From the NCBI GenBank assembly GCA_031835245.2, contig JAVKOQ020000086.1, positions 124,001 to 186,804 on the forward strand: a stretch of 62,804 nucleotides of DNA, read 5' to 3'. This document shows positions 12,235-37,257 of this stretch, piece by piece. Below the pieces are notes generated by a model, which saw only the letters and a program-made list of their open reading frames with translations, had not been told where the DNA came from and did no database searches. The translations under genes were made by a program, and so were the position numbers. The stretch comes from Balamuthia mandrillaris (taxonomy: Eukaryota). Each line of letters opens with the position of its first letter. Position 1 is the stretch's first letter.

Positions 12235-13246
12235 TTACTCATCAACAGGCCAACCCCCGTTATTCCACGGATTCCTCTTCTGTCCTCGATTCTCTCTTCC
12301 TTGCCTCCACCTCCTACTCCTCGCTCCCGCCGATGCTTCCTCCTTCTTTCTCCTTCCTCCTTTGTTTCTTCCTTGTTCATCCCCCTCTTCTTCTTCTTTC
12401 ACATCCTGTAACACAAGATCGCCAGCCAATTCAAAGGCTGCTCGGAATGGCAACAGCTTCTTCTCCCTCTTATCATCCAATACCGCGAACACAACCCTCT
12501 CAAAGCCATATCCGTTCTCCTCTTCTTTTCTCAAGCAGTCTCGAAAGTATCTCGCCACATCGACGGCTCTGTTTCGAAAGACGCCACACCCAAAGGCGCC
12601 CAACACCAACACTCGGTGCTCGTGGTGCCGCGCCACGCAGAGGATGCGGCGTATGCGCTCCTTCATCACGACCGCTATGGCTCTCTCCACGTCCTCCTGC
12701 CTGCAACGAGGGAGCAGCTGCGAGCGAACGGCGCCGGCGTTGACGGCGGGGCTGCTGATGAAGGAGACCAAGTAAGGCTCATCCAGGAGGAGGCCCTCGT
12801 CGTCCCTAAAGACCGGCACTTGCGGCGAATAGATCATATGATGCGTGTAGAGGCAGTGATGGGAGAACGCCTCCGAAGAAGACGAGGCAGAGGAAGAAGC
12901 ACCACTTGAAGAAGAACGTGAACGACGAGGGCGGGAGGCTCGAAGAGAGGCATGAGCAGAGTACATGGCGCTGGCGATGGGAGAGGTGAGCGTGGCGTAG
13001 AGGCCGCTGCTTCGCGCCAGGGACTCCTCCTGCGCGGAGGAGCCTTTGAGGAAGCCCCCGCCGGGGTTGTGCGCCGAGGCAAAGTTGAGCACGCATACGT
13101 CGCGCTCGCCCTCCTCCACCAGCCGTCTGGCCGCCTCCAGGGTGGTGCAGTTCTCCACCTCTATGATGGGAAGCTTTGGCTTGTTATCCTTCTGCTCCGC
13201 TTCTTTTTGTTCTCCTTCTACTTCTTTTTCTTTTTCGACTTCTTCT

Positions 13247-13278
<32 letters not shown>

Positions 13279-13602
13279 ACTTTCTTCTTCTTTTGCTCTT
13301 TCCTCGTCGATGGTGTTCTTCTCCGCTTCGCCTTCTTCTCTTTCTTCTTCTTCTTCTTCCTTTAGCGTGGTCTCCGCTTCGTCCGTTGTTGGCGCCGAGT
13401 CGTTGGCTCTCTTCCGTCGCTTGGGCTTTTTGGGCTTCCATCGAACGTCAGGCACGTAGAGAATGGTCCCTTCGACGGCCGTCTGCAGGTCCTCCTTGAC
13501 GCTGACCCTCTTTCCGTTCTGGCTGAGGTACTTCCCTTCCTCCAAGATCTGCAGGGTGTGAACAGCGAGTGAGGCGCGATGCGACTTGCCAGCCGAACTC
13601 AT
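12235..13602 (-). CDS. TIGR02452/DUF2263 macrodomain protein (bacterial-type poly(ADP-ribose) glycohydrolase)
   Basis: Intronless ORF with VLNFASAHNPGGGFLKGSSAQEESLARSS (GGG-x6-QEE catalytic loop), IYSPQVPVFR, SPAVNAG and LVLGAFGCGVFRN. Confidence 0.93.
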
Positions 13603-13948
13603 GTTTTATTTTTGTGTGGGGGTTTTGCACAAAAAGTCCAAAAAAAAAAAAGAAGACTTTGGGGTCTTTCTTTCTTTCTAAATTTATTTATAGGATGAAG
13701 GGATGGTAAAAACAACAAGAAAAAAAAAACAACAAGTTGAGAAGAAAGCGGGAAGGCAGCAGAAATGAAGTGGACACCACCACCACCAGTCGTAGTTGCT
13801 CTTTGTTTTTTTTCACTTCCCTTTTGTTTTTGTTTTTGATGAATATTTTCTGTCAGGTCGTCATGGAAGAACATATTTTTGTCGAATTATTCAATTTTTT
13901 GTGGAAAAATTTATGAAATAAATATTTCACTTAATTTTGAAAGATAAG

Positions 13949-27162: not shown

Positions 27163-27240
27163 CAAAATAAAATAAAAAACGGAAATTAAAGAAAAAAAAT
27201 TTTAAAAAAGAAAAGAAAAGAAGAAGAGGAGAAGAGAGAG

Positions 27241-28391
27241 ATGGAGGCGTGGTGGCAGGGACTGACGGAGCGCTTCTCCGATAGGACGCTCTTTGCGTTC
27301 TCCTCATTGCTGCACTCGGCCGTGTTCTTCGGGCTGAACTTCTTGCTGCACCTGGCGCACCGCCGCAACCTCTTCCAGCGCTACAAGATCCAGAAGCACA
27401 AGTACCCCTCCCCCGAGCTGCTGCGGAAGGCCCTGTGGAACGTGGTGCCGAAGCACGTCACCGCCCCTGTGGTGCTCTGGTTGACATGGCCCGTTTTTCA
27501 GATGTGCGGCGTCCACACAGGTACTTTTTTCTTTTTTTCATTTTATTTTTTCTTTTTTTTCTTTTTCTTTTTTTCTTTTTTCTTTTTTTTCTTTTTTCTT
27601 TTTTTCTTTTTTTTTCATTTTATTTTTTATTCTTTTTTTCTTCATTTTTTCATTTAATTTTTTTTATTTTTTTATTTTTTCATTTCATTTTTTTTGTTCA
27701 GATTCTTTTCCATCGATGCTGGAAGTAGTTGGGCACATATTCGTCTATATTATCATCCAGGACACGCTCTTCTACTGGAGCCATCGTCTCTTGCACACCT
27801 CCAAATGGCTCTACAAGAACGTGCACAAGCAGCACCACGAGTTCTACACCCCTGTTGGCATATCCGCTGAATACGCGCACGGTCTTGGTCAGCACTTCTT
27901 CCTCTTCCTTCGTCGCTTCTCTCTTCTCTCTTCTCCCGTTCTGCTCTCTACTTCTCTTCTTTCTTCTCTTTTAGTGTTCTGCGGCTTTCTCTTCCCTCTT
28001 CCACTCTCCTCGTTCTCTCATTCACCTTTTGTTTTCAACAGAGGATTTCTTCAACACGACGGCGATGTTGGCGGGACCATTGCTGCTCGGCTGCCACCTG
28101 TTTACATTGTGGGTGTGGGTTTTCCTTCGCATATGGGAGACGGTGGACGCTCATAGCGGCTACTCCTTCCCCTTGTGGCTCTCACCCTGGTCCTTGTTGG
28201 AGGTTGCAGACTCTCATGACTTTCACCACTCCCACAATCAAGGCAGCTTTGGCTCCTTCTTTGGCACATGGGATTGGCTCATGGGCACTGACGTTGCCTT
28301 CAACGAATGGAAGAAGAAGCAAACTGCTGCGCCAACTACATCTGACCGACCAAAGGAAAAGAAGATTGACGCCGATGCGAAGAACAAGTGA
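27241..28391 (+). CDS. Sterol desaturase / C-4 methylsterol oxidase-like (fatty acid hydroxylase superfamily), 3 exons
   Basis: His boxes FYWSHRLLH, HKQHH, DAHSGY and HDFHH. YKIQ motif near the N-terminus. Introns at about 27521-27701 and 27881-28042. Confidence 0.92.
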
Positions 28392-28537
28392 TACTGCAAC
28401 TGCTTACAATCTTCTTAGTTTCTTTTTCTCATTTCATTGTGTTTTTATTCTTCCTCAACATCAGCTCAGTTTATCCTTTCTATTACTCTGTTTTCTCTAT
28501 GGCACTGTGTTTGTTCTTGCTTACTTGCTCTCGCTCC

Positions 28538-28592
<55 letters not shown>

Positions 28593-28613
28593 ATTCTTTA
28601 TTCTTTTGTCATT

Positions 28614-31600
28614 TTACAACTTAAATACTTCGCTCTTATTAAATAGATAAAACATAGAGACAGTGTGTTCTTTGATGAAGAACATGACTGCAGACGTTAT
28701 CATCGAATGCAGCAGTTTCATCTTCAATCCGCGATGGTACATTGGTAACACCTCTCCAAAGATACTTATCACCATTCCACATCTCATTTGGTGGCGATAC
28801 CGAGGTAATTGCTTTCCTTCTTCATCTTCCTCTTCGTCGCCTTTATCTTTGAGGTTTCTGATCTCTCGAAAGTCAGAAGTTGGACACAAAAGAAGACCGG
28901 CTTGATGTCTAACTCGCAAAACTTGGATGGGGTATGTCAACGTTGTGGCTATCATTGATGACAACGCGCCGAGAGACAGGCTCAGTAACGGGAACGACAT
29001 GTGGAGTTGAGTGGACTGCAGGAATGGGACCCCATTGCTATCCACTGCGAAGAACTCCATGGCGAATCCTTCCAACATTACGTATACGTTGGACTGCACG
29101 ACTGGAAACAAAATCATCACCTAGGACGATGACAGGACATTAGGAAGGGCAGAACAAGGGAGGATTAGAAGAAGCAGAAGGAAACGGGGAATGCATGAAG
29201 AAGATGGGATGAAGAAAGAGAGAAACAAACCAAGTTAGGGAAAAGACCTCGCCAAAAGCCAACAAATCCTTCTTCCTTCCACAACCGTAGCACTTCATCA
29301 GAAAAACCCACACAATTTTCTGATGAGGGTGACGCAACTTGCAACCGAGTGATAATGACCCAAAGCGGTGTTGACACCAACACGTTCGCCACTCCACCCA
29401 TAAAAGCAGGTATCCAGCTCGTCGTTATCGTCCAGTTCTCACCATCTTCATCTGAGGAAGAGGATATAGCCGAAGAAGAGAAAGAAACAGATGAAGAGTA
29501 GGATGACATGGCGTGAAATACCAACCAAAAGATAAAGCTCGACAGACCGGCAGTCAAAATAGACAACATTCTTCCAGGCACGGATGATGAAGAGGAAGAG
29601 GAAGAAGAAGAATGTTCATGCGGCGTTTGTTGACCGCTATTGTTGGTTTGTTGCACGATAATACCAGCTGCTTGTTGGACGTGTTTCAAAAGGAGGCTGT
29701 AAGCAACGGCTTGACAAACCATTGCTCCCAACGCTCCTCCCAATGCTTTCACAAAGACTGAAGGCTCTTTGCCTTCTTCTTCTTCTTTGTTTCCTGCTTC
29801 ATTTTCATCTTCGCGACGATCGTGACGATGAGGAGAAGCATATGAAGGCAGAGATGAAGAAACAATTTTCTTCAACAGAACGCGACGCAAGATGTCCACT
29901 TCACCGACAGTGCTTTTCCACAGAGGGCCTCCTGTTTGTGCTGGCAAGAATCTGGCATACCCATCTCCTCCTTCTGCTAGCCACTCCGTCACAACTATCC
30001 ATATCCCATCCTCATCATTTACTTCCTTCCATACTTCTCCTTCCTCGTCATCTTCTTTTTGCGAATAGTAATGTCGCAACGCTTCGTCCTCTTCATTGCA
30101 TTGCTTCAACACGGCAGCTCTCAGCCAAGTCACTTTTGGTGTGGAGTTGTTGTCGGAGATGCCAAACCGAAGACCGGCTGTTTGCAAGACTGCACCTCCG
30201 TAAGAGGCAGCATCTCCTTCCAGCCCATTCATTACTCGAAGCGAACGTTCTACCATTTGACGGAGTTCTCCTCCTGTTGCCTTCAACATGACCAACTGGT
30301 TGTTCCATGGCAGCATCTCGCGAACGTGTCTGTCATGCAGCGGGCCGCTCCAAAGTTGAGATCGAATTGACCCTGATTCACGAAGAGCGATCACCAGTTC
30401 TGTTTCTTGAAGGAGTGAAGATGACGAGACTTCGCAAAGAGCATACCGGCGCATCGCGTCAGCAATGAACTTGCCCATTACGCATGGTCCCACTCTGCAA
30501 GAAGTTCGACTGTCGCTCAGCAACGTCCTTCCGACTTCTTGTTCTCGATCTTGCAGCTTATTCCTCCTCTTCTTCTTCTCTTTCTGTTTATTCCTACGCT
30601 GCACCATTTTGTCGTCTGCATCGTTATTCTCTGCTGAAACGATAGACTCGTGTCTATTTTGGATGATGGCCAATAGAGGACCCAACTGCAAAGCGTTCAA
30701 TCGAGGTTGCAACCATTCATGAACGCTCTGTTTGGTTGCAGTATGGTGAAGACGCAGCTTCTCCTCCTCCTTCGCTACTTCCACATCCATAATCACAACA
30801 TTTTCCTTCATCGCACGAAGAGCGTTCCGCTTTGACTTTGACGGAAGTGTCTCTACTCCATCTATCTCTTCCTTCCATACAAGACCGACCAACCCAAGGT
30901 ATTGCATGGAGTGGCCCGCATGAATCACTAATACCGAACCGCTTCTCCCTTCTCCTTCTCCTTCTTCAACGTGTAAGGCATGTGCATGGCCACCAAGAAT
31001 CACATTAATCAGTCCTTTCGTGCGAGCTGCAAGGAACGAGTCCAGTTCAACCCCTCCGTGGCCTAGCAGAATTACCGCATCGCAACCCTTTCTACGCAGC
31101 TCCTTTGCTTCCTCTCTTACCAACTCCAAAATGTGGTTCCTTTCGCTCACTCCAGTGAGCATTGCCGACTCTGCATCCGTATACCCCATCACCCCAATCT
31201 TCTTTGCGTGACTTGCTTCGTCATCGATGTTGACGATGACAGAGGGCTTGACTCCATTCGCTTTGACATTGACAGAAAGCACAGGAAAACCAGCACTTTG
31301 CACGAACGCTGGAATATCCGATAAGAACTCCATGTCATGATTTCCAAGGGCCATGGCCTTATAGCCCAATATCCGCATGAGATGAGCCATCCCCAAGGGA
31401 CCGTGTGCAGCGAAGAATTCGGAACCCACAAAAGAATCTCCAGCAGACAGCAGCAACACGGAAGAAGCAGAAGTTGACAATTGGCGATGCATAGTAAGAA
31501 GATCTAGATGAGCGGCGAGCAAAGGAGCCAAAGAGACGTGACCATGAACATCGCTGTTGAAGGCGATGAGGAGGTCTGCAGAGCCAACAAAGGAGGGCAA

Positions 31601-33489
31601 CGGCGATGATAATGTGATAATAGGAAGAGAAGTCGAGGAAGAAGATGAGGGAGAGAGAATCAGATTGCTGTCAGGAACCACGATAACCGTTCTCGGGTTG
31701 TGAACAGCGAGAGAGAGGAAATGAGATTCGTCTGGCGGTTCGTTCGTTTGAGGAGGAAGCAACGCAATAGGAGAAGAGGTTGGGGCGGGTGAAGCTTCAA
31801 AGGAAATACTTCCCAACTCGCACTTGATAGCAACCGCGCTTGTTTGCAAACTTCCGGCGTGGGCGCTTCTTGCTATGTTGCCCGAAGCAGGAGAAGAACA
31901 AGTTGCTATGTTCGAGGCTTTGAGTCGTTCGATGGCCTCATCAGCGAGTTTGGAGAATCGTCCCACAACGTCGTCATTCGCGTCTTTATTGTCTCCCTGC
32001 GCAACTACAACGTGGCATGATGGACCTGCTTCGGCGGAAAGATGTTCCACAAAGTCCATCACCTTTCCTTCCACTTTGGCCAGAGCTAACTGCATCCTCG
32101 TTGAATGCATTCCATCAGGATCAAACAATGACCACAACGCGGTGGAGTTTGCCTCCTTCCCTCGTCCTTGTGGGTGAAGGGGAGGATGTCGAAGCAAAGC
32201 GACAAACCCAGAACCCCTGCAATGCAGAAACTCCTCCGAAGAGTCACAAAGACAGGGAGCAAGGCTGGCCTGCCATCCCGTTCGAAACAAGGAGAGGTCC
32301 CCATGGCAAGTGTCTCTCCCTCCAGACATTGCCAAGGGCAGCTGCATCAGCTGCTGATGAGTGAGGGAAAGGAGATGTTCAGTGTCACGAACGCCGATGG
32401 GGAGGCGGGCTTGCACGTTGTCGCGCAGGTCTAGTATTTCAAATGTTGTCGTCTCGTTGTACTCAACAAATACGTGGGAAAGATACTGTAAGAAGGTGAC
32501 CACGAGAAAGTTCAGTGGCGCAGCTGCTGGCGCAAAAGAAAAGCGGAGGATACTAACCTGAACACTATCATAGCCGGCCTCGCGAGCTTTCACACGCACG
32601 AAAGGATTCACCACGTGAATTTGATGTCGTTCAGCTGGCACAGTGCTGCTCTCGTTTGTAACACACCTCCACCCTCCGCCAAAGTGATTGCATGCCTCAA
32701 CATGAGTGCTGTTGTTTTCTTAAATGAGCTGCGGAGAACGAGAAAGAGCAAGGAAGAAAAGAAGAGAGGCTGAGGATAGAAGTGAGACAAAGAGAGAGTA
32801 AAAAGAGCAGAACTAAACTGAAAAACAATTGTTTTGCCGAGGTTGTAGAAGATGCCTGTGCCAACGTTGAAGAACATCCAAAACCCTTCTGGAAGGTACT
32901 CGCAGCATCTATGAGTAACTTCTACCCACGACCCCGAAGGTATGCCCTGTGGAAACCTTCTCAGAAAAGGCCCTGATTTGTGCTGTTTCCCCCGTTCCAT
33001 ATCTCCAAATGCGTGAATGGTGTAACCATGGTCTTCTGGTTTGAGGCTTCTAAATGACTCCAGATAGACATCCCCGAATCTTACCTCAGCCCGTCGCATA
33101 CGGTCATGTAAATAACGTGCATACACGGTGCGTATGTCTTGTTTCAACCTGAGCGGGAGATGACGATGGTAGAAGAAGGTGAAGTTTCGCGTGTCGATGG
33201 GAAAGCCAAGGAGATGAGGGCCGCCGTAGACGGAGGAAAGGTAGAGGAGCCACTCTGGTTCCTGGAGGAGCTGCTGCTCGTTCCCAAAGAGAGGAAAGGC
33301 CAAGGCGCGGGTGCCGTAGAAGTTTGGTCCCCATTCAACACAGCTGTGTGCAATCGAAGGTGCCAGAGGCGTTTCTGCGCCTATTGCAGCGCAACTCAAG
33401 CAAAGCAGCGCAAAAACTGTGAGTGCGAGGTGGCGTTGCATCCGTATCGATGCGCATCGGTTCTCCTCCTTCCACCCTAGAACTAGCAT
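28614..33489 (-). CDS. Fusion protein: signal peptide + uncharacterised domain + 5'-nucleotidase/apyrase + SLC25 (PMP34-like) carrier
   Basis: Exons 33489-32819, 32708-32558, 32485-29231 and 29120-28614 join in frame through GT-AG introns. Metallophosphoesterase motifs SDVHG, AGD, LGNHD, GH, GGHAH. 5'-NT C-domain (GKFIADAMR, ESGSIRS, LPWNN, LAEGGDGY). Carrier motifs STPLWVIITRLQ, EEGFVGFWRGL, TYPIQVLRVRHQ. The start may be Met 33441. Confidence 0.8.
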
Positions 33490-33639
33490 CCGCCTCACCT
33501 AGTTCCGCCGAAAGGCACACTGTCGACACAAAACATTTTTTCGATTATTGATCGGATTGATTATTTGTCGCCTAAATTTAAAAGTTTGTAATTTTTTCGA
33601 AATATTGTGATATATTTCCGATTTAGTATCGCAATAAAC

Positions 33640-33762
33640 CTCCGGCGTGCCTAATCACGGCTTGTCTTACGACTCGCTATAAGCAACGGTGCCGGCACCA
33701 AAGCAACCTTACCGCCTACCGCCCCCTCACAGAGGAGGAGGAGGTGGTGGTAAGTGCTTGTA
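33640..33762 (-). ncRNA. Putative Fanzor omegaRNA scaffold / element right end, overlapping the ORF stop
   Basis: Long stem CAAGCA-CTTACC..CCTCCTC/TGT/GAGGGGG..GGTAAG-TGCTTTG spans the stop codon. It is followed by GGTGCCGGCACC, TTGCT-TAT-AGCGA and GTC-GTAA-GAC (GNRA loop), then a switch to AT-rich host DNA near 33640. The position matches known TnpB/Fanzor omegaRNAs. Exact ends are unknown. Confidence 0.65.
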
Positions 33763-35455
33763 ACGTAAAAAAGCGGATCAAGATGTTTCGGGAGGCGTTG
33801 GCATCTCGATCGGCCTGGTAGCCACACTCGGGTTGGGGGCACCGAAAGGTCTTGTTTCCCCCCAACTGGTGGTGGACTTGGCCGCACTTGCCGCAGGTCT
33901 TGGAGGTGTATTCCTCATCGCAGAGGCAGACCGTACAGGACGGAAATTGCTTGGCCTTGTTGAGGAGCCTCTGCCTGAAGCTATAGTGGGACCAGGTGAG
34001 CATGGCTCTGGCCGTTCGTGAGCCAATGCGTCGGTGGCCTCGCCGCACCATCTGCTGGCTCCTGAACTCTGGCAGAAGGATGAGGGAGAAGTTCCTGACC
34101 AACCAAGACACGAGCTTCTTGTGGAGGTCATCCACCAGGTTGCGGATCCTCTGGCGAAGCCGAGCAGCGGCCCTTCGGAGACGGCGCCGTTGCCTGTGGT
34201 TGACCTTGGTGCCCTTACTCTGCATGCGGTCCAGGCGGTGGCACAGCTTGCCTATCTCGTTGATGTCCGCTTTGCCCCACTCGGTGACCTCCCCGCAGCC
34301 GTTGTAGGTGGTCATGAATGTGCGCACTCCTGGATCCAAGGCGATGATGCCTGCCTCTCTCCTTCGGTGCTCACGGACTTGGCTCTCGCCCATGAGCTTC
34401 AAAGGCTGAGGCACACAGAGGTAGTAATGGCCCAGTCGAGTGTCTTTCACCAGACGAACGGCATAGAGCACCTCCGACGGAACTTTGTAGTTCTTGTCCC
34501 TCGCTTTGATTCGCGTCTCCCCGAAGAAGAGTTGGCGGATGGACTTGCTGTGGTTCCACTCCCTGGCTTGGATGCTGAGAGACTGGCTCTTGTCCTTCCG
34601 ACCACGGAACTTCATCTTGAATCCAGTCCTGCCCGCCGCCAAGCTGGTTTTCACGCCGTTGAAGAAATCATCGACGGCGTCACTGCGAATGTATCGAGGA
34701 GTTTCCAACACCCACGCAAGGCTCTTGTCCTCTCCGTTGAAATTGCCGTTATTCAGGAATTTCTCCCTGACTTGTTCCTTCATCTCCTTAAGAGGCATTC
34801 CTTTATGTTCACGATGAAACTCCACGGCCTTGTTGTAGGTCCATCGTACTGTGCCGAACCACTTGGCCAGCGTCTTCTTTTGTTCCGAGCGCGGATAAAG
34901 GCGGATCTTCTCCAATCGCCCCACTACCGGTTTCTCCTCTCCATTCTTGCCTTTTTTGGTGAGCTGTACGGCTGGGCGAGACGGAACGAGTCCCTCGATG
35001 AGGCCTAACAAGCCTTTCTGGTTTTTCTCCTCTTCTTCCTTCTCCTTCTCCTTCTCCTCTTCCTCTTCCTCCTTCTTCTCCTTCTCCTTCTTCTCCTCCT
35101 CCTCCTCCTCCTCCAACACCTTTTCTCCGTTAGGAATGTGCTTGCAGGCGGTGAACCATCCTGAACCACAGGCAAAGGGTTCTTCCAAGCACAAGGCTTC
35201 TGGGCGTATTAATCTTCTCCCGATTTCGCTGGAAAACTGGTTCCAAAAGGGCTGGGCGGGTGCAGCCTGCGGCCTTCCACGCTTCTGTGCCCTTGCCTGA
35301 GGTGCCGCTGGGGCGTTTTCCGCTCTTCTTTTCCGAGTAGCAGTGGGAGTAGAAGAAGTAGTGGTGCGACCCCCTTCCTTGTGGACCCGACCGAAGTGAA
35401 CGGCCAACCCGTGAGAGGTAGCAAACTTTTTTCGGCACTGTGGGCAACTTGCCAT
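33716..35455 (-). CDS. Fanzor2 (IS607/TnpB-derived RNA-guided endonuclease) with N-terminal C2H2 zinc finger, 579 aa
   Basis: OrfB-type HTH (KIRLYP..QKKTLAKWFGTVRWTYN), MKFRGRK, RuvC-I IIALDPGVRTF (D374), Pro at the canonical RuvC-II position (ILLPEF), alternative Glu in DEEYTSKTCGKCG (E514), Zn ribbon FRCPQPECG, RuvC-III DRDANASRNI (D551). N-terminal CPQC-x12-H-x4-H. Intronless with no stops. Confidence 0.95.
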   Translation of the reverse strand: MASCPQCRKKFATSHGLAVHFGRVHKEGGRTTTSSTPTATRKRRAENAPAAPQARAQKRGRPQAAPAQPFWNQFSSEIGRRLIRPEALCLEEPFACGSGWFTACKHIPNGEKVLEEEEEEEKKEKEKKEEEEEEKEKEKEEEEKNQKGLLGLIEGLVPSRPAVQLTKKGKNGEEKPVVGRLEKIRLYPRSEQKKTLAKWFGTVRWTYNKAVEFHREHKGMPLKEMKEQVREKFLNNGNFNGEDKSLAWVLETPRYIRSDAVDDFFNGVKTSLAAGRTGFKMKFRGRKDKSQSLSIQAREWNHSKSIRQLFFGETRIKARDKNYKVPSEVLYAVRLVKDTRLGHYYLCVPQPLKLMGESQVREHRRREAGIIALDPGVRTFMTTYNGCGEVTEWGKADINEIGKLCHRLDRMQSKGTKVNHRQRRRLRRAAARLRQRIRNLVDDLHKKLVSWLVRNFSLILLPEFRSQQMVRRGHRRIGSRTARAMLTWSHYSFRQRLLNKAKQFPSCTVCLCDEEYTSKTCGKCGQVHHQLGGNKTFRCPQPECGYQADRDANASRNILIRFFTLQALTTTSSSSVRGR

Positions 35456-36067
35456 TCAGGCCAGCTTCCAGCAGCGTTGTGGAAGAGGCGCACAGAGGTT
35501 CGTGATGCTGTTCTTTTTTAAACAAAAGAAATCATTAGTGAGTGGTTGGTAACAAATTTTTTTTCCATCATCAAAAAATGTAGTGAGCGAGCAGAGAAAA
35601 AAGAACGCTACCTTTTCAATCGGAGCGGTGCCCCTGCCTGCTGCTGAACCGCTTCGGTTTCCACCTGTGCCTCCTTCCGCCGCTGGTTTCCTCCTTGTGT
35701 AGTAGAAGCGTAGCAATGAGAAATACGGTGGTGCGTGGAGCTTCGTGGATGTGTGTGTCTGTGTGTTTACTTTTGAAAAGAAAGAAACGACAAGAAAAGA
35801 AGAGAAGAAAAGAAAACGAGTAGCAGAAAAGTGTCAAGGCGAATGACGAGTACCAAAAGTTTATTGGCGGCAGCAGCATGAGCATCCATTCCATTCACCC
35901 CACCCCACACCCCAACCCACCACTTTGCCTTCGAAGACGTGGGAGAAGGAAGGGTTGTTTTGGCGGGAAAAATGCTCATTGGCCCAAAAGACGAATGTCG
36001 GGATTTCTTTTTTGTTGTCCTTAGATCTTATGATCTTTGCGTCGCCTTACAAGCAACACTGGTGTAA

Positions 36068-36272
36068 CGCAGCGCTTCTCTTCTTCTGGACACAAAACAT
36101 GGGGAAGGGAGAAGGCAGAGCAAGCGAAGGGACTACCACACCTTTATCTACAAGGTGCTTGCACAAGCAAGTGCACCCCAACAAGAGCATCAGCAATCAA
36201 GCTATGCTCATCACGGACTCCTTCATTAGGGGCATTGCCTATCCGCTCTTGCAGGAGGCCACCATGCTGTTG
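36068..36272 (+). pseudogene. Frameshifted histone H2B-like fragment
   Basis: RRQSKRRDYHTFIYKVL + 4 extra nt (GCAC, 36161-36164) + KQVHPNKSISNQAMLITDSFIRGIAYPLLQEATML. This aligns with the H2B consensus YIYKVLKQVHP..ISSKAM.IMNSF..I..EA. No in-frame start and no C-terminal helices. Confidence 0.75.
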
Positions 36273-36330
36273 CCTGTTGTTTTTCTTTCGTTCTCGTGCT
36301 TCGTTCCTCTTCTTCATCATCTGTGTTGCA

Positions 36331-37257
36331 CTACCAACCACGAGGCAAAAACTGCTCTAACTCCTTCATGACCCGCTGAATGCCAACCACTAAAGGGGAC
36401 TCCTGGTATGTCCTGCTCCTCCACTGTTGTTGCTGTTGTTGCAGAGCTGCCTTCTTCCTCTTGATCCGGTGCAAGGAGCCATGCTTGTGGGCCTGCCACT
36501 TGAGGAAGAAAGGCATCCAGCGGGCCATCATGCACAGCAGGCAACCCCAAAGGAAACACCTCCTGGCCGCACTCCACTCCTGCCGCTTCCTCAACCTCTG
36601 CCGGTGGTCATAGTAGACCGAGTAGGTGCAGTAGCGCAGGAGGGCTCCCACAAAACACAAGAGGAAGCCCGCACGCAGGCCATAGCGCAGGGCACCCACC
36701 ACAGGGAGGAGGTAGCCCAGGTAGAGGCCCAGCAGGTGGCGTTTGGTGGCAAACTCCACGTCCACCACCGTGCTGCCCTCGTAGTGCACCAACATCACCG
36801 CGTTGCCTTCACTGTTTGTGTTGGCAGGCAAAACAAAAAAAAAGAGAGTGAATACACAAGATTAAGAAAAAGGGTGGGAGAAAGAGTAGCATGCATACAA
36901 GATTTGTTTGTGGAGGTCCCATGCTTGGAGGAGTTCTTTGTGGCGGAGACGAAGGCCCACGTTGCGCAGGTGGAAGAAAAGGGCTTTTTTGGATTGCCAA
37001 CGGTCCGGGCGGAGGGACTGCTGCTCCACGTACTGAGGGGAGAGGTAGCCCTTCCACTCGCCATGGCAGAGCTCCTGCCGGATGCGGCGCTTCCAGTGGA
37101 CCTCGTCGTTGCCGAGGGCGTGGAACCGTTTGTTGGCGAGGGTGAGGTTCAAGGCGTCGTTCTCGTTGAGGAGGACAAACACGTTGAACCATACCTCATC
37201 CGGGAGGTCGTACAGGATCGACGGCTTCTCCTCCTTCCATCTCTTTCCTCGAAACAT
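36331..37257 (-). CDS. F-box protein with two predicted C-terminal TM segments, 2 exons
   Basis: F-box LYDLPDEVWFNVFVLL..LTLANKRFHALGNDEVHW. Intron 36898-36812 joins in frame (QIF|EGNAV). Hydrophobic segments in exon 2. Confidence 0.75.

What the first reader, a model, noticed from the sequence alone, without database searches (positions are those of the whole stretch)
28614..33489. Secretory 5'-nucleotidase fused to an SLC25/PMP34-like carrier
Seen: nucleotidase and carrier repeats 1-2 lie in one uninterrupted ORF (29165-32641), and repeat 3 follows after one phase-0 intron. There is an N-terminal signal peptide and intact metal ligands (DxH, GD, GNHD, H, GHxH). Established: SLC25 carriers are normally free-standing organelle proteins without signal peptides, and PLWVxxTRLQ is typical of peroxisomal nucleotide carriers. 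Inference: a luminal nucleotide hydrolase coupled to its own transporter (ER/Golgi/phagosome salvage), or a degenerate carrier reused as an anchor, since repeat 1 lacks the PxD/E signature.
Basis: partly seen in the sequence, partly recalled or inferred. Interest (0 to 1): 0.75.

Follow-up and report, generated by a model that had tools for sequence, protein, structure and literature searches.

The report
Secreted nucleotidase fused to degenerate carrier
In the brain-infecting amoeba Balamuthia mandrillaris, one reading frame joins a nucleotide-dephosphorylating enzyme with intact catalytic residues to a worn-down peroxisomal-type transporter, which likely sits upside-down in the secretory membrane and likely serves more as an anchor than as a working carrier.

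Summary
The fusion is real at the DNA level. The minus-strand gene (33441-28614, Balamuthia mandrillaris) has four exons and about 1511 aa. No stop and no plausible intron lies between nucleotidase and carrier. A public DNA contig with five differences bridges the junction, and a second NCBI protein (90% identical) has the same architecture. Nucleotidase metal and substrate positions are kept. The carrier folds as SLC25 (Z 20.3) but matches none of the three matrix-gate or three cytoplasmic-gate motifs, and its first matrix helix is replaced by poly-serine. It is nonetheless the most conserved part between the two copies. The signal peptide would force the carrier into reversed orientation; charge and sequon patterns fit that. 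Best reading: a luminal or surface nucleotidase anchored by a domesticated, probably non-exchanging carrier (0.5). Coupled transport remains possible (0.2). No RNA covers the gene, only one species shows the fusion, and the full HMMER search could not be run.

The parts
32819..33441 (-). Exon 1 (ATG at 33441): signal-peptide-like segment and first half of the unnamed Cys-rich domain
   Evidence: exon end from the P0002-like splice. NCBI model P0001 uses a donor 5 nt further on.
33376..33441 (-). Predicted signal peptide, residues 1-22
   Evidence: Kyte-Doolittle 2.07 for residues 4-22; small residues at -3/-1 at several sites from 16 to 22. No SignalP-type tool was available.
32709..32818 (-). 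Intron 1, 110 nt, GTTTAG..AACAG, phase 2 (inferred)
   Evidence: 75% pyrimidine; this splice gives TIVF-H-THVEA, matching P0002 and relatives without an insertion
32558..32708 (-). Exon 2
32486..32557 (-). Intron 2, 72 nt, phase 0, in frame and stop-free (inferred); translated as 24 extra residues in NCBI model P0001
   Evidence: absent from P0002; GT..AG ends; relatives read GYDS-IQF without it
32213..33342 (-). Unnamed Cys-rich domain (WVEVTH ... G.TI.F..H ... GYDS ... R.GW ... C.C), P0001 residues about 34-378, no Pfam match
   Evidence: 4 relatives, E 6e-20 to 6e-5; 8 loci in giant-virus and metagenome contigs; no Pfam or NCBIfam family for it
29231..32485 (-). Exon 3 (3255 nt): end of the unnamed domain, linker, whole nucleotidase, linker, carrier H1-H3 and start of H4
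30857..31576 (-). Metallophosphoesterase domain: D599, H601, D637, N669, H670, H763, H787, H789
29867..30541 (-). 5'-nucleotidase C-terminal domain: R951, R995, W1014, W1122, D1128
29762..29866 (-). 35-codon open linker between nucleotidase and carrier; purine-rich second half, no Met
   Evidence: bridged by X1 contig record 1
28617..29761 (-). Degenerate six-helix SLC25 domain of the PMP34/SLC25A17 group (P0001 1196-1540)
29585..29620 (-). Poly-serine tract replacing matrix helix h12 and the EEG..RG motif of repeat 1
29121..29230 (-). Intron 3, 110 nt, phase 0, inside H4
   Evidence: 81% pyrimidine, GTTTGT..CCTAG; same splice in P0001 and P0002
28614..29120 (-). Exon 4: rest of H4, repeat 3, stop

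Best explanation
One reading frame joins an unnamed Cys-rich domain, a CD73-type 5'-nucleotidase and a degenerate PMP34-like carrier, and the protein likely enters the ER through its predicted signal peptide, so that the enzyme would face a secretory lumen or the cell surface while the carrier would sit reversed and likely acts mainly as a six-helix anchor. Shown: the contiguous frame, the domain identities, the kept catalytic positions, the lost gate motifs, and conservation between two copies. Inferred: a single mRNA; signal-peptide cleavage; H1 acting as stop-transfer, which puts the carrier's N-terminus, H2-H3 loop, H4-H5 loop and C-tail in the lumen and the former matrix loops in the cytosol; hydrolysis of AMP or related nucleotides to nucleoside plus phosphate in a phagosome, in secretory compartments or at the surface; loss of gated nucleotide exchange.
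For: Fusion: stop-free frame. Of the ten most pyrimidine-rich GT..AG pairs in the linker zone, none exceeds 0.69 pyrimidine overall or 0.56 over its last 25 nt, against 0.75-0.82 for introns 1 and 3 and 0.67 for intron 2. The first Met available to a separate carrier is M1209, in the middle of H1. The junction is bridged by a DNA contig with 5 differences. A second NCBI protein, 90% identical, has the same architecture. Enzyme: the CD73 positions N117, H118, H243, R354, R395, F417, F500 and D506 (named in PMC7508162 passages) align to N669, H670, H787, R951, R995, W1014, W1122 and D1128; the motifs carrying them are found in both copies. Carrier decay: 0 matches to Px[DE]xx[KR] and 0 to [YF][DE]xx[KR] in either copy, against 1 and 1 in P0026 and P0029. 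Only 51 of 122 columns shared by three PMP34-like proteins are kept; losses include P>S1217, EEG>SSS1249-51, N>F1377, E>V1386, K>E1389, K>S1427 and R>Q1445. H3, H4 and H5 carry no charged residue, and H1, H2 and H4 are more hydrophobic than in the four PMP34-like relatives. The branch is 2.85 changes per column long. Reversed topology: the two c-side loops hold 0 K/R and 7 D/E in 67 residues in both copies, against 3-10 K/R in 8 of 8 free-standing carriers, while the former matrix loops hold 16-18 K/R. An NWT sequon sits in the H2-H3 loop of both copies. Relatives of the N-terminal domain include type II membrane-like proteins with a GT29 sialyltransferase domain (P0016, E 1e-12; L005). Constraint: 12 differences in 345 carrier residues against 47 in 350 linker residues (Fisher p 2e-6), and 2 conservative differences in 130 helix residues.
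Against: No RNA evidence: runs X3-X5 gave 7, 11 and 8 mostly partial reads and no splice joint, so expression and a single transcript are unshown. The signal peptide rests on hydropathy and (-3,-1) inspection only; in P0002 it scores lower (1.51). The carrier is more conserved between copies (96.5%) than a mere anchor needs, and it keeps six helices, two prolines, one EG..WRG motif and K1507, which argues for a retained function beyond tethering. PMP34-like proteins themselves deviate from the signature in repeats 2 and 3 (P0025 and P0030 also have no strict match). Some gate salt bridges are non-essential in working carriers (PMC9104175, abstract). Some of the lost c-loop lysines are the gate lysines, so the topology and gate arguments are not independent. 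A sequon also lies in the H1-H2 loop (N1235), which would be cytosolic, so sequons are weak evidence. Patchy identity between haplotypes could inflate the conservation contrast. CD73 N390 (numbering recalled) is E990 here.
Confidence: 0.5

Rival explanations
1. Coupled hydrolase-transporter: same single protein and reversed topology, but the carrier still conducts a solute, most plausibly an uncharged nucleoside product or phosphate inward, or AMP/NAD-type substrate outward to the tethered enzyme.
For: All six helices align to the ADP/ATP carrier fold (Z 20.3, rmsd 4.1, 258 aligned). The carrier is the best-conserved region between copies. K1507 in H6 and Q1381 in H4 are kept. SLC25A17 exchanges AMP, CoA, FAD and PAP in liposomes (PMC13299602 passages), which overlaps nucleotidase substrates. 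A more hydrophobic, uncharged cavity could suit a neutral nucleoside (inference). Plant ER-ANT1 and PM-ANT1 work outside mitochondria (PMC3355725 passages).
Against: Neither gate motif is matched in any repeat. h12 is replaced by poly-serine, and the model's H1 is one unkinked helix, residues 2-42. Family members that lose the charged network residues (MTCH1/2, SLC25A46) are the 'peculiar' ones with non-transport roles (PMC7611774 passages).
Confidence: 0.22
2. The open frame is real but the products are separate: the nucleotidase mRNA ends early or uses an unseen splice, or the precursor is cleaved, and the carrier is made or released on its own.
For: No RNA covers the junction. A 35-codon in-frame stop-free gap would arise by chance about 10% of the time with local intergenic composition. 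A 55-nt frameshifting GT..AG pair exists in the linker (29863-29809).
Against: There is no room for a 3' UTR plus promoter in 105 nt. A separate carrier would start at M1209 and lose half of H1. The linker GT..AG pair lacks a pyrimidine-rich 3' end (0.56). Both NCBI models are fused and differ in the linker by whole residues. The X1 haplotype insertion in the upstream linker is 9 nt, in frame.
Confidence: 0.14
3. The protein is a peroxisomal or other organelle membrane protein in normal carrier orientation: the N-terminal hydrophobic stretch is not used as a signal peptide and the nucleotidase hangs in the cytosol.
For: The carrier groups with PMP34-like proteins (97/99 support). The signal peptide was not tested with a dedicated predictor. 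An out-of-frame ATG lies 16 nt upstream (33457), so start-site use is uncertain.
Against: The Cys-rich N-terminal domain occurs in type II membrane-like GT29 proteins. N-glycosylation sequons N86, N231, N400 and N1066/7 are kept in both copies. c-side loops have lost all K/R. CD73/UshA-type enzymes are typically extracytosolic (established knowledge).
Confidence: 0.09
4. A recent accidental fusion or decaying gene with no function.
For: Found in one species only. Long branch. A TnpB/Fanzor-like gene ends 275 nt upstream of the ATG and may disturb the promoter.
Against: No stop among the 32 X1 variant codons examined, and no frameshift. Catalytic motifs are kept in two copies 10% apart. Differences concentrate in linkers.
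Confidence: 0.05

Closest known systems
CD73 / UshA / NadN 5'-nucleotidases (Metallophos + 5_nucleotid_C)
   Same: Two-domain layout, dimetal ligands, catalytic His, two substrate Arg and the ribose Asp; best PDB hit is CD73 (E 3e-26); N-terminal signal-like peptide.
   Different: The two stacking Phe are Trp and N390 is Glu. There is an extra 340-residue N-terminal domain. The C-terminus is a six-helix carrier in place of CD73's GPI anchor (GPI anchor recalled). It scores far below all NCBIfam equivalog cut-offs, so substrate specificity is not assigned.
SLC25A17 / PMP34 / PMP47 / PXN peroxisomal cofactor carriers
   Same: Top sequence hits (E 7e-15 and 4e-14; one hit is named 'adenine nucleotide transporter 17'), the PLWV..TR and YPIQ motifs, and a clade with 97/99 support among 11 rows.
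   Different: Only 26-27% identical. Repeat-1 signature, h12 and both gate networks are lost. It is fused behind a 1190-residue ectodomain with a predicted signal peptide, implying reversed orientation.
Repurposed SLC25 members: MTCH1/2, SLC25A46, carrier-fold subunits of Tetrahymena complex IV
   Same: Carrier fold kept while the charged network residues are lost (PMC7611774 passages). The model also matches the Tetrahymena complex IV chains 7w5z_M1 and 8b6h_DS at Z 15.0.
   Different: Those are mitochondrial and free-standing, and MTCH1/2 and SLC25A46 keep the signature prolines. Here one proline is lost and the domain is fused to an enzyme.
SLC25 carriers with extra domains or outside mitochondria: APC and AGC (EF-hand N-termini), plant ER-ANT1 and PM-ANT1
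   Same: An N-terminal domain joined to a carrier (PMC7611774), or a location in ER or plasma membrane (PMC3355725).
   Different: Their extra domains are regulatory EF-hands, not enzymes. ER-ANT1 and PM-ANT1 are free-standing, transport-competent AAC relatives without a large ectodomain.

Membership tests
5'-nucleotidase (CD73/UshA type) | Metallophos plus 5_nucleotid_C domains | tested here: met
   Both above Pfam cut-offs in the window ORF and in P0002; Metallophos was not listed for full-length P0001
5'-nucleotidase (CD73/UshA type) | Dimetal ligands and catalytic His | tested here: met
   D599, H601, D637, N669, H670, H763, H787, H789 in both copies. GD, GNH, GH and GGH align to CD73; the DxH strand lay outside that alignment and is assigned by motif.
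5'-nucleotidase (CD73/UshA type) | Substrate site: two Arg, two stacking aromatics, ribose Asp | tested here: met
   R951, R995, W1014, W1122, D1128 against R354, R395, F417, F500, D506. The last two come from a weak second segment (score -1.9) with the motif LA.GGDG.
5'-nucleotidase (CD73/UshA type) | Measured nucleotide hydrolysis | not testable with these tools
   needs an assay
SLC25 fold | Six transmembrane helices in three repeats | tested here: met
   AlphaFold2 model, pLDDT 68.6, 11-sequence alignment; Foldseek 6gci E 2.9e-4, TM 0.58/0.67; VIA Z 20.3
SLC25 transporter (functional) | Px[DE]xx[KR] matrix gate on H1, H3, H5 | tested here: not met
   0 strict matches. H3 and H5 have the PMP34-type variants PLWVIITR and PIQVLRVR; H1 lacks the Pro. 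Two of four PMP34-like relatives also have no strict match.
SLC25 transporter (functional) | [YF][DE]xx[KR] cytoplasmic gate on H2, H4, H6 | tested here: not met
   0 matches; three of four PMP34-like relatives have one
SLC25 transporter (functional) | Three matrix helices with [DE]Gxxxx[YWF][KR]G | tested here: not met
   1 match (repeat 2). Repeat 1 is replaced by poly-Ser and is disordered in the model.
SLC25 transporter (functional) | Solute transport | not testable with these tools
   needs liposome assay
SLC25A17/PMP34 subfamily | Phylogenetic placement with PMP34-like carriers | tested here: inconclusive
   97/99 support, but on a 2.85-long branch with only 9 reference rows, none of them a characterised protein; the PMP34-like label rests on one JGI name and recalled motifs
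SLC25A17/PMP34 subfamily | Peroxisomal location, free-standing protein | tested here: not met
   Not free-standing. Location itself was not testable.

The most novel reading that the evidence does not exclude
An SLC25 carrier that is inserted co-translationally at the ER, upside-down, as the C-terminal part of an ecto-nucleotidase, and that still conducts solute. This would be a one-polypeptide nucleotide scavenging unit (hydrolyse, then import) at the phagosome or surface of a human pathogen, carrying in addition an undescribed Cys-rich domain shared with giant viruses and algal-type glycosyltransferase proteins.
Probability: 0.2. Interest if true: 0.85.

Novelty: new variant of a known kind. 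Interest (0 to 1): 0.62.

Why it matters
In the reviews read here, SLC25 carriers are free-standing or carry EF-hand domains. A natural fusion that places a carrier behind a signal peptide and a 1190-residue enzyme ectodomain would show that the fold can be inserted through the ER in reversed orientation and reused outside organelles. That makes a question about carrier biogenesis and topology directly testable with one gene. It would add a secretory-pathway case to the short list of repurposed carriers. For Balamuthia it identifies a candidate membrane-bound ecto-5'-nucleotidase, a class linked to purine salvage and to adenosine-mediated immune damping in other parasites (search listings; not tested here). 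The limits are that it is seen in one species, without RNA evidence.

Tried and rejected
No whole genome was held, so paralogues and a canonical Balamuthia PMP34 could not be looked for. No RNA holder was listed; three RNA runs with the same species label gave no useful coverage, which says nothing about expression. The HMMER search of 1.84 billion representatives never ran (queue full on 10 of 10 tries), so absence of the fusion elsewhere rests on one word-indexed search: 2 hits among the 7989 candidates scored, lengths 636-2025 aa. ESM Atlas gave no usable hit for the N-terminal domain and only ordinary nucleotidase clusters at 0.85 for the nucleotidase-plus-carrier part; neither shows absence. 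The AlphaFold2 model of the N-terminal 514 residues was unusable (pLDDT 34.8) and was not searched. The N-terminal domain was not found in prokaryote genomes (0 of 69 candidate stretches). None of the 8 related loci gave a tblastn match to P0002 outside residues 77-339, so no nucleotidase or carrier was seen beside the domain. No Rfam match in 28000-37000. Candidate hidden introns were rejected. For 31687/31678 to 31576, the acceptor AG appears absent in P0002 (GSAD against ASAN, inferred from protein). For 31687/31678 to 31554, the splice would remove the first metallophosphoesterase strand. For 29521-29452, it would remove H2 residues that align with relatives. Paper searches for such a fusion returned nothing relevant by title and abstract start. 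Supplements of PMC8569187 and PMC10471605 (one file each) held none of the terms; bioRxiv supplements are closed, and those of 10.1101/2025.02.25.640156 (listing only) may hold expression data. Earlier scan findings: nothing that bears on this. The model's closer match to the matrix-open state was not used as evidence of mechanism. No complex prediction was run, since no binding claim is made.
Full report
Source and gene structure. The long ORF matches an NCBI protein of Balamuthia mandrillaris at 100% (P0001, KAL6065546.1, 1540 aa) and a second at 90% (P0002, KAL6057424.1, 1512 aa); both are named only 'Metallophos domain-containing protein'. Joining window 33441-32814, 32718-29231 and 29120-28614 reproduces P0001 exactly. 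Comparison with P0002 and with relatives of the N-terminal domain indicates that P0001 is slightly mis-spliced. Intron 1 is better placed at 32818-32709, and a 72-nt in-frame GT..AG intron at 32557-32486 accounts for 24 residues that P0002 lacks. The corrected model has four exons and 1511 aa (my arithmetic from the coordinates). Whether P0002 is an allele, a paralogue or another strain's copy is not known. Run X1 shows two haplotypes at 32414-32549, and differences that match P0002 at some codons and not at others.

Is the fusion real? Nucleotidase and carrier lie in exon 3, separated by 35 open codons (29866-29762). Chance alone would give such an in-frame gap about 10% of the time, so the open frame is not proof; the other evidence carries the case. 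The ten most pyrimidine-rich GT..AG pairs starting in 29990-29740 have at most 0.56 pyrimidine in their last 25 nt, whereas introns 1 and 3 are 75-82% pyrimidine overall. A separate carrier could start only at M1209, inside H1. A 2329-nt Logan contig of run X1 covers 28600-30904 with 5 other letters and no gap, which removes the assembly-join objection; X1 may be related to the source sample, but it is not identical to the window. I examined the 34 coding-region differences among the 40 rows shown (4 further rows were not shown). They fall in 32 codons, none creates a stop, and the one insertion is 9 nt, in frame. RNA runs X3-X5 gave 7, 11 and 8 reads, nearly all partial, and no splice joint; transcription is therefore untested.

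N-terminal part. Residues 4-22 are hydrophobic (2.07; P0002 1.51), with several possible cleavage sites. No dedicated predictor was available. Residues about 34-378 form a domain with no Pfam family. Fourteen columns are invariant over seven rows, including WxEVxH and GxTIxF, and GYDS is shared by all rows that cover it. It occurs alone in the viral contigs, and behind a membrane-anchor-like segment, a proline-rich stalk and a GT29 sialyltransferase domain in GC-rich eukaryote-like sequences (P0016; L005 and L008; GT29 was seen in P0016 and, below cut-off, in P0004). This fits a luminal or extracellular domain (inference). Its function is unknown and its model failed.

Nucleotidase. The best solved relatives are CD73 chains (E 3e-26). 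Metal and catalytic positions D599, H601, D637, N669, H670, H763, H787 and H789 lie in motifs found in both copies. CD73's substrate residues R354, R395, F417, F500 and D506 (PMC7508162, passages) align with R951, R995, W1014, W1122 and D1128 (construct offset of 25 worked out by me; the last two rest on a weak segment). N245 is H789. N390 (numbering recalled) is E990. I infer an active metallophosphoesterase on nucleotides; the substrate is not assigned, as all NCBIfam scores are far below cut-off.

Carrier. The 8 hits among 7989 scored candidates are all Mito_carr proteins, and the best are PMP34-like by motif and by one JGI name. In an 11-row tree the two copies join the four PMP34-like rows at 97/99 on a branch of 2.85 changes per column; long-branch caveats apply. 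The AlphaFold2 model (pLDDT 68.6, 11 sequences) matches the ADP/ATP carrier 6gci (Foldseek E 2.9e-4; Z 20.3, rmsd 4.1, 258 aligned). The gate motifs that PMC7611774 (passages) calls key components are not matched: 0 Px[DE]xx[KR], 0 [YF][DE]xx[KR] and one [DE]G..[KR]G. Against this, PMP34-like relatives also deviate: two of four have no strict matrix motif. The same review notes that PMP34 has a weak matrix network, and PMC9104175 (abstract only) shows some bridges are dispensable. The additional losses here go beyond that: the H1 proline, the whole h12 helix, N1377, the YE..K motif of H4 and the H5 lysine. Kept are two prolines, the repeat-2 matrix helix, Q1381 and K1507. Between the two copies the carrier differs at 12 of 345 residues against 47 of 350 in linkers (p 2e-6), with 2 conservative changes in 130 helix residues. 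The domain has changed fast and is now held, though haplotype mosaicism could contribute.

Topology. In SLC25 carriers both termini face the cytosolic side (established knowledge). No hydrophobic segment above 1.5 lies between the signal peptide and H1 in P0001; P0002 has one marginal window of 1.51 at 548-566, which overlaps the first nucleotidase strand. If the signal peptide is used, the ectodomain and the carrier's N-terminus are luminal and the carrier is reversed. Consistent with this, the H2-H3 and H4-H5 loops hold 0 K/R and 7 D/E in 67 residues in both copies, against 3-10 K/R in 8 of 8 free-standing carriers, while the three former matrix loops hold 16-18 K/R. An NWT sequon lies in the H2-H3 loop. 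Caveats: some of the missing lysines are gate residues; free-standing carriers also have basic matrix loops; a sequon also lies in the H1-H2 loop; and the H1 alignment of three distant rows (P0027, P0028, P0031) was off, so I compared H1 only with the four PMP34-like rows.

Mechanism. Most likely (0.5), a single ER-inserted protein displays an active 5'-nucleotidase in a secretory or endocytic lumen or at the surface, and is held by a reversed PMP34-derived bundle that has lost gated exchange. The main rival (0.22) keeps solute flux coupled to the enzyme. Separate products (0.14), normal-orientation organelle protein (0.09) and a functionless fusion (0.05) follow.

Novelty. Each module belongs to or resembles a known family, except the unnamed N-terminal domain. 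The combination was found only in the two Balamuthia proteins, but that search is word-indexed and scored 7989 candidates, and the sensitive search could not be run. Four full-text searches found no description (listings and abstract starts only). Papers seen: PMC7611774, PMC3355725, PMC7508162 and PMC13299602 as passages; PMC10471605 as passages plus one supplement search; PMC8569187 as a supplement search only; PMC9104175 as abstract and outline. I rate this a new variant of known kinds, interest 0.62. It is surprising to a carrier specialist and cleanly testable, but restricted to one species and without expression data.

Noticed in passing
window 33716-35455 (-): Intron-less 579-aa TnpB/Fanzor-like ORF (weak C2H2 finger, HTH_OrfB_IS605, OrfB_IS605, Cas12f1-like_TNB) ending 275 nt upstream of the fusion gene's ATG. 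No second copy in the window and no Rfam match nearby. The Fanzor label is recalled.
   Followed up: partly
L001:4968-5864, L002:4521-5882, L005, L007, L008; window 32213-33342: An unnamed domain family (WxEVxH / GxTIxF..H / GYDSIQ / RxGW / CxC) shared by giant-virus contigs, GT29-containing proteins and this amoeba gene; it has conserved His, Glu and Asp residues that could be catalytic, and no Pfam model.
   Followed up: partly
window 33455-33457 (-): Out-of-frame ATG 16 nt upstream of the main ATG, opening a 40-codon ORF that overlaps the signal-peptide region.
   Followed up: no
window 28614-28625 (-): The protein ends in FKL in both copies, resembling a non-canonical PTS1 tripeptide (recalled); probably irrelevant for a membrane protein.
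   Followed up: no
window 31785-32049 and 32414-32549: Run X1 shows patchy divergence (19 differences in one 791-nt contig against 5 in 2305 nt downstream) and two haplotypes at depths 3.4 and 11.5, suggesting polyploid, mosaic alleles.
   Followed up: partly
window 27190-28391 (+): Convergent FA_hydroxylase gene (resembles a sterol C4-methyl oxidase, recalled); its stop is 222 nt from the fusion gene's stop.
   Followed up: no
window 12235-13605 (-): Microbial-type PARG catalytic domain, two matched stretches (E 8e-44), in a eukaryote gene.
   Followed up: no
L001:8690-10621: ABC-F/EF3-like ATPase ORF on the giant-virus contig near the unnamed-domain gene (identified by eye).
   Followed up: no
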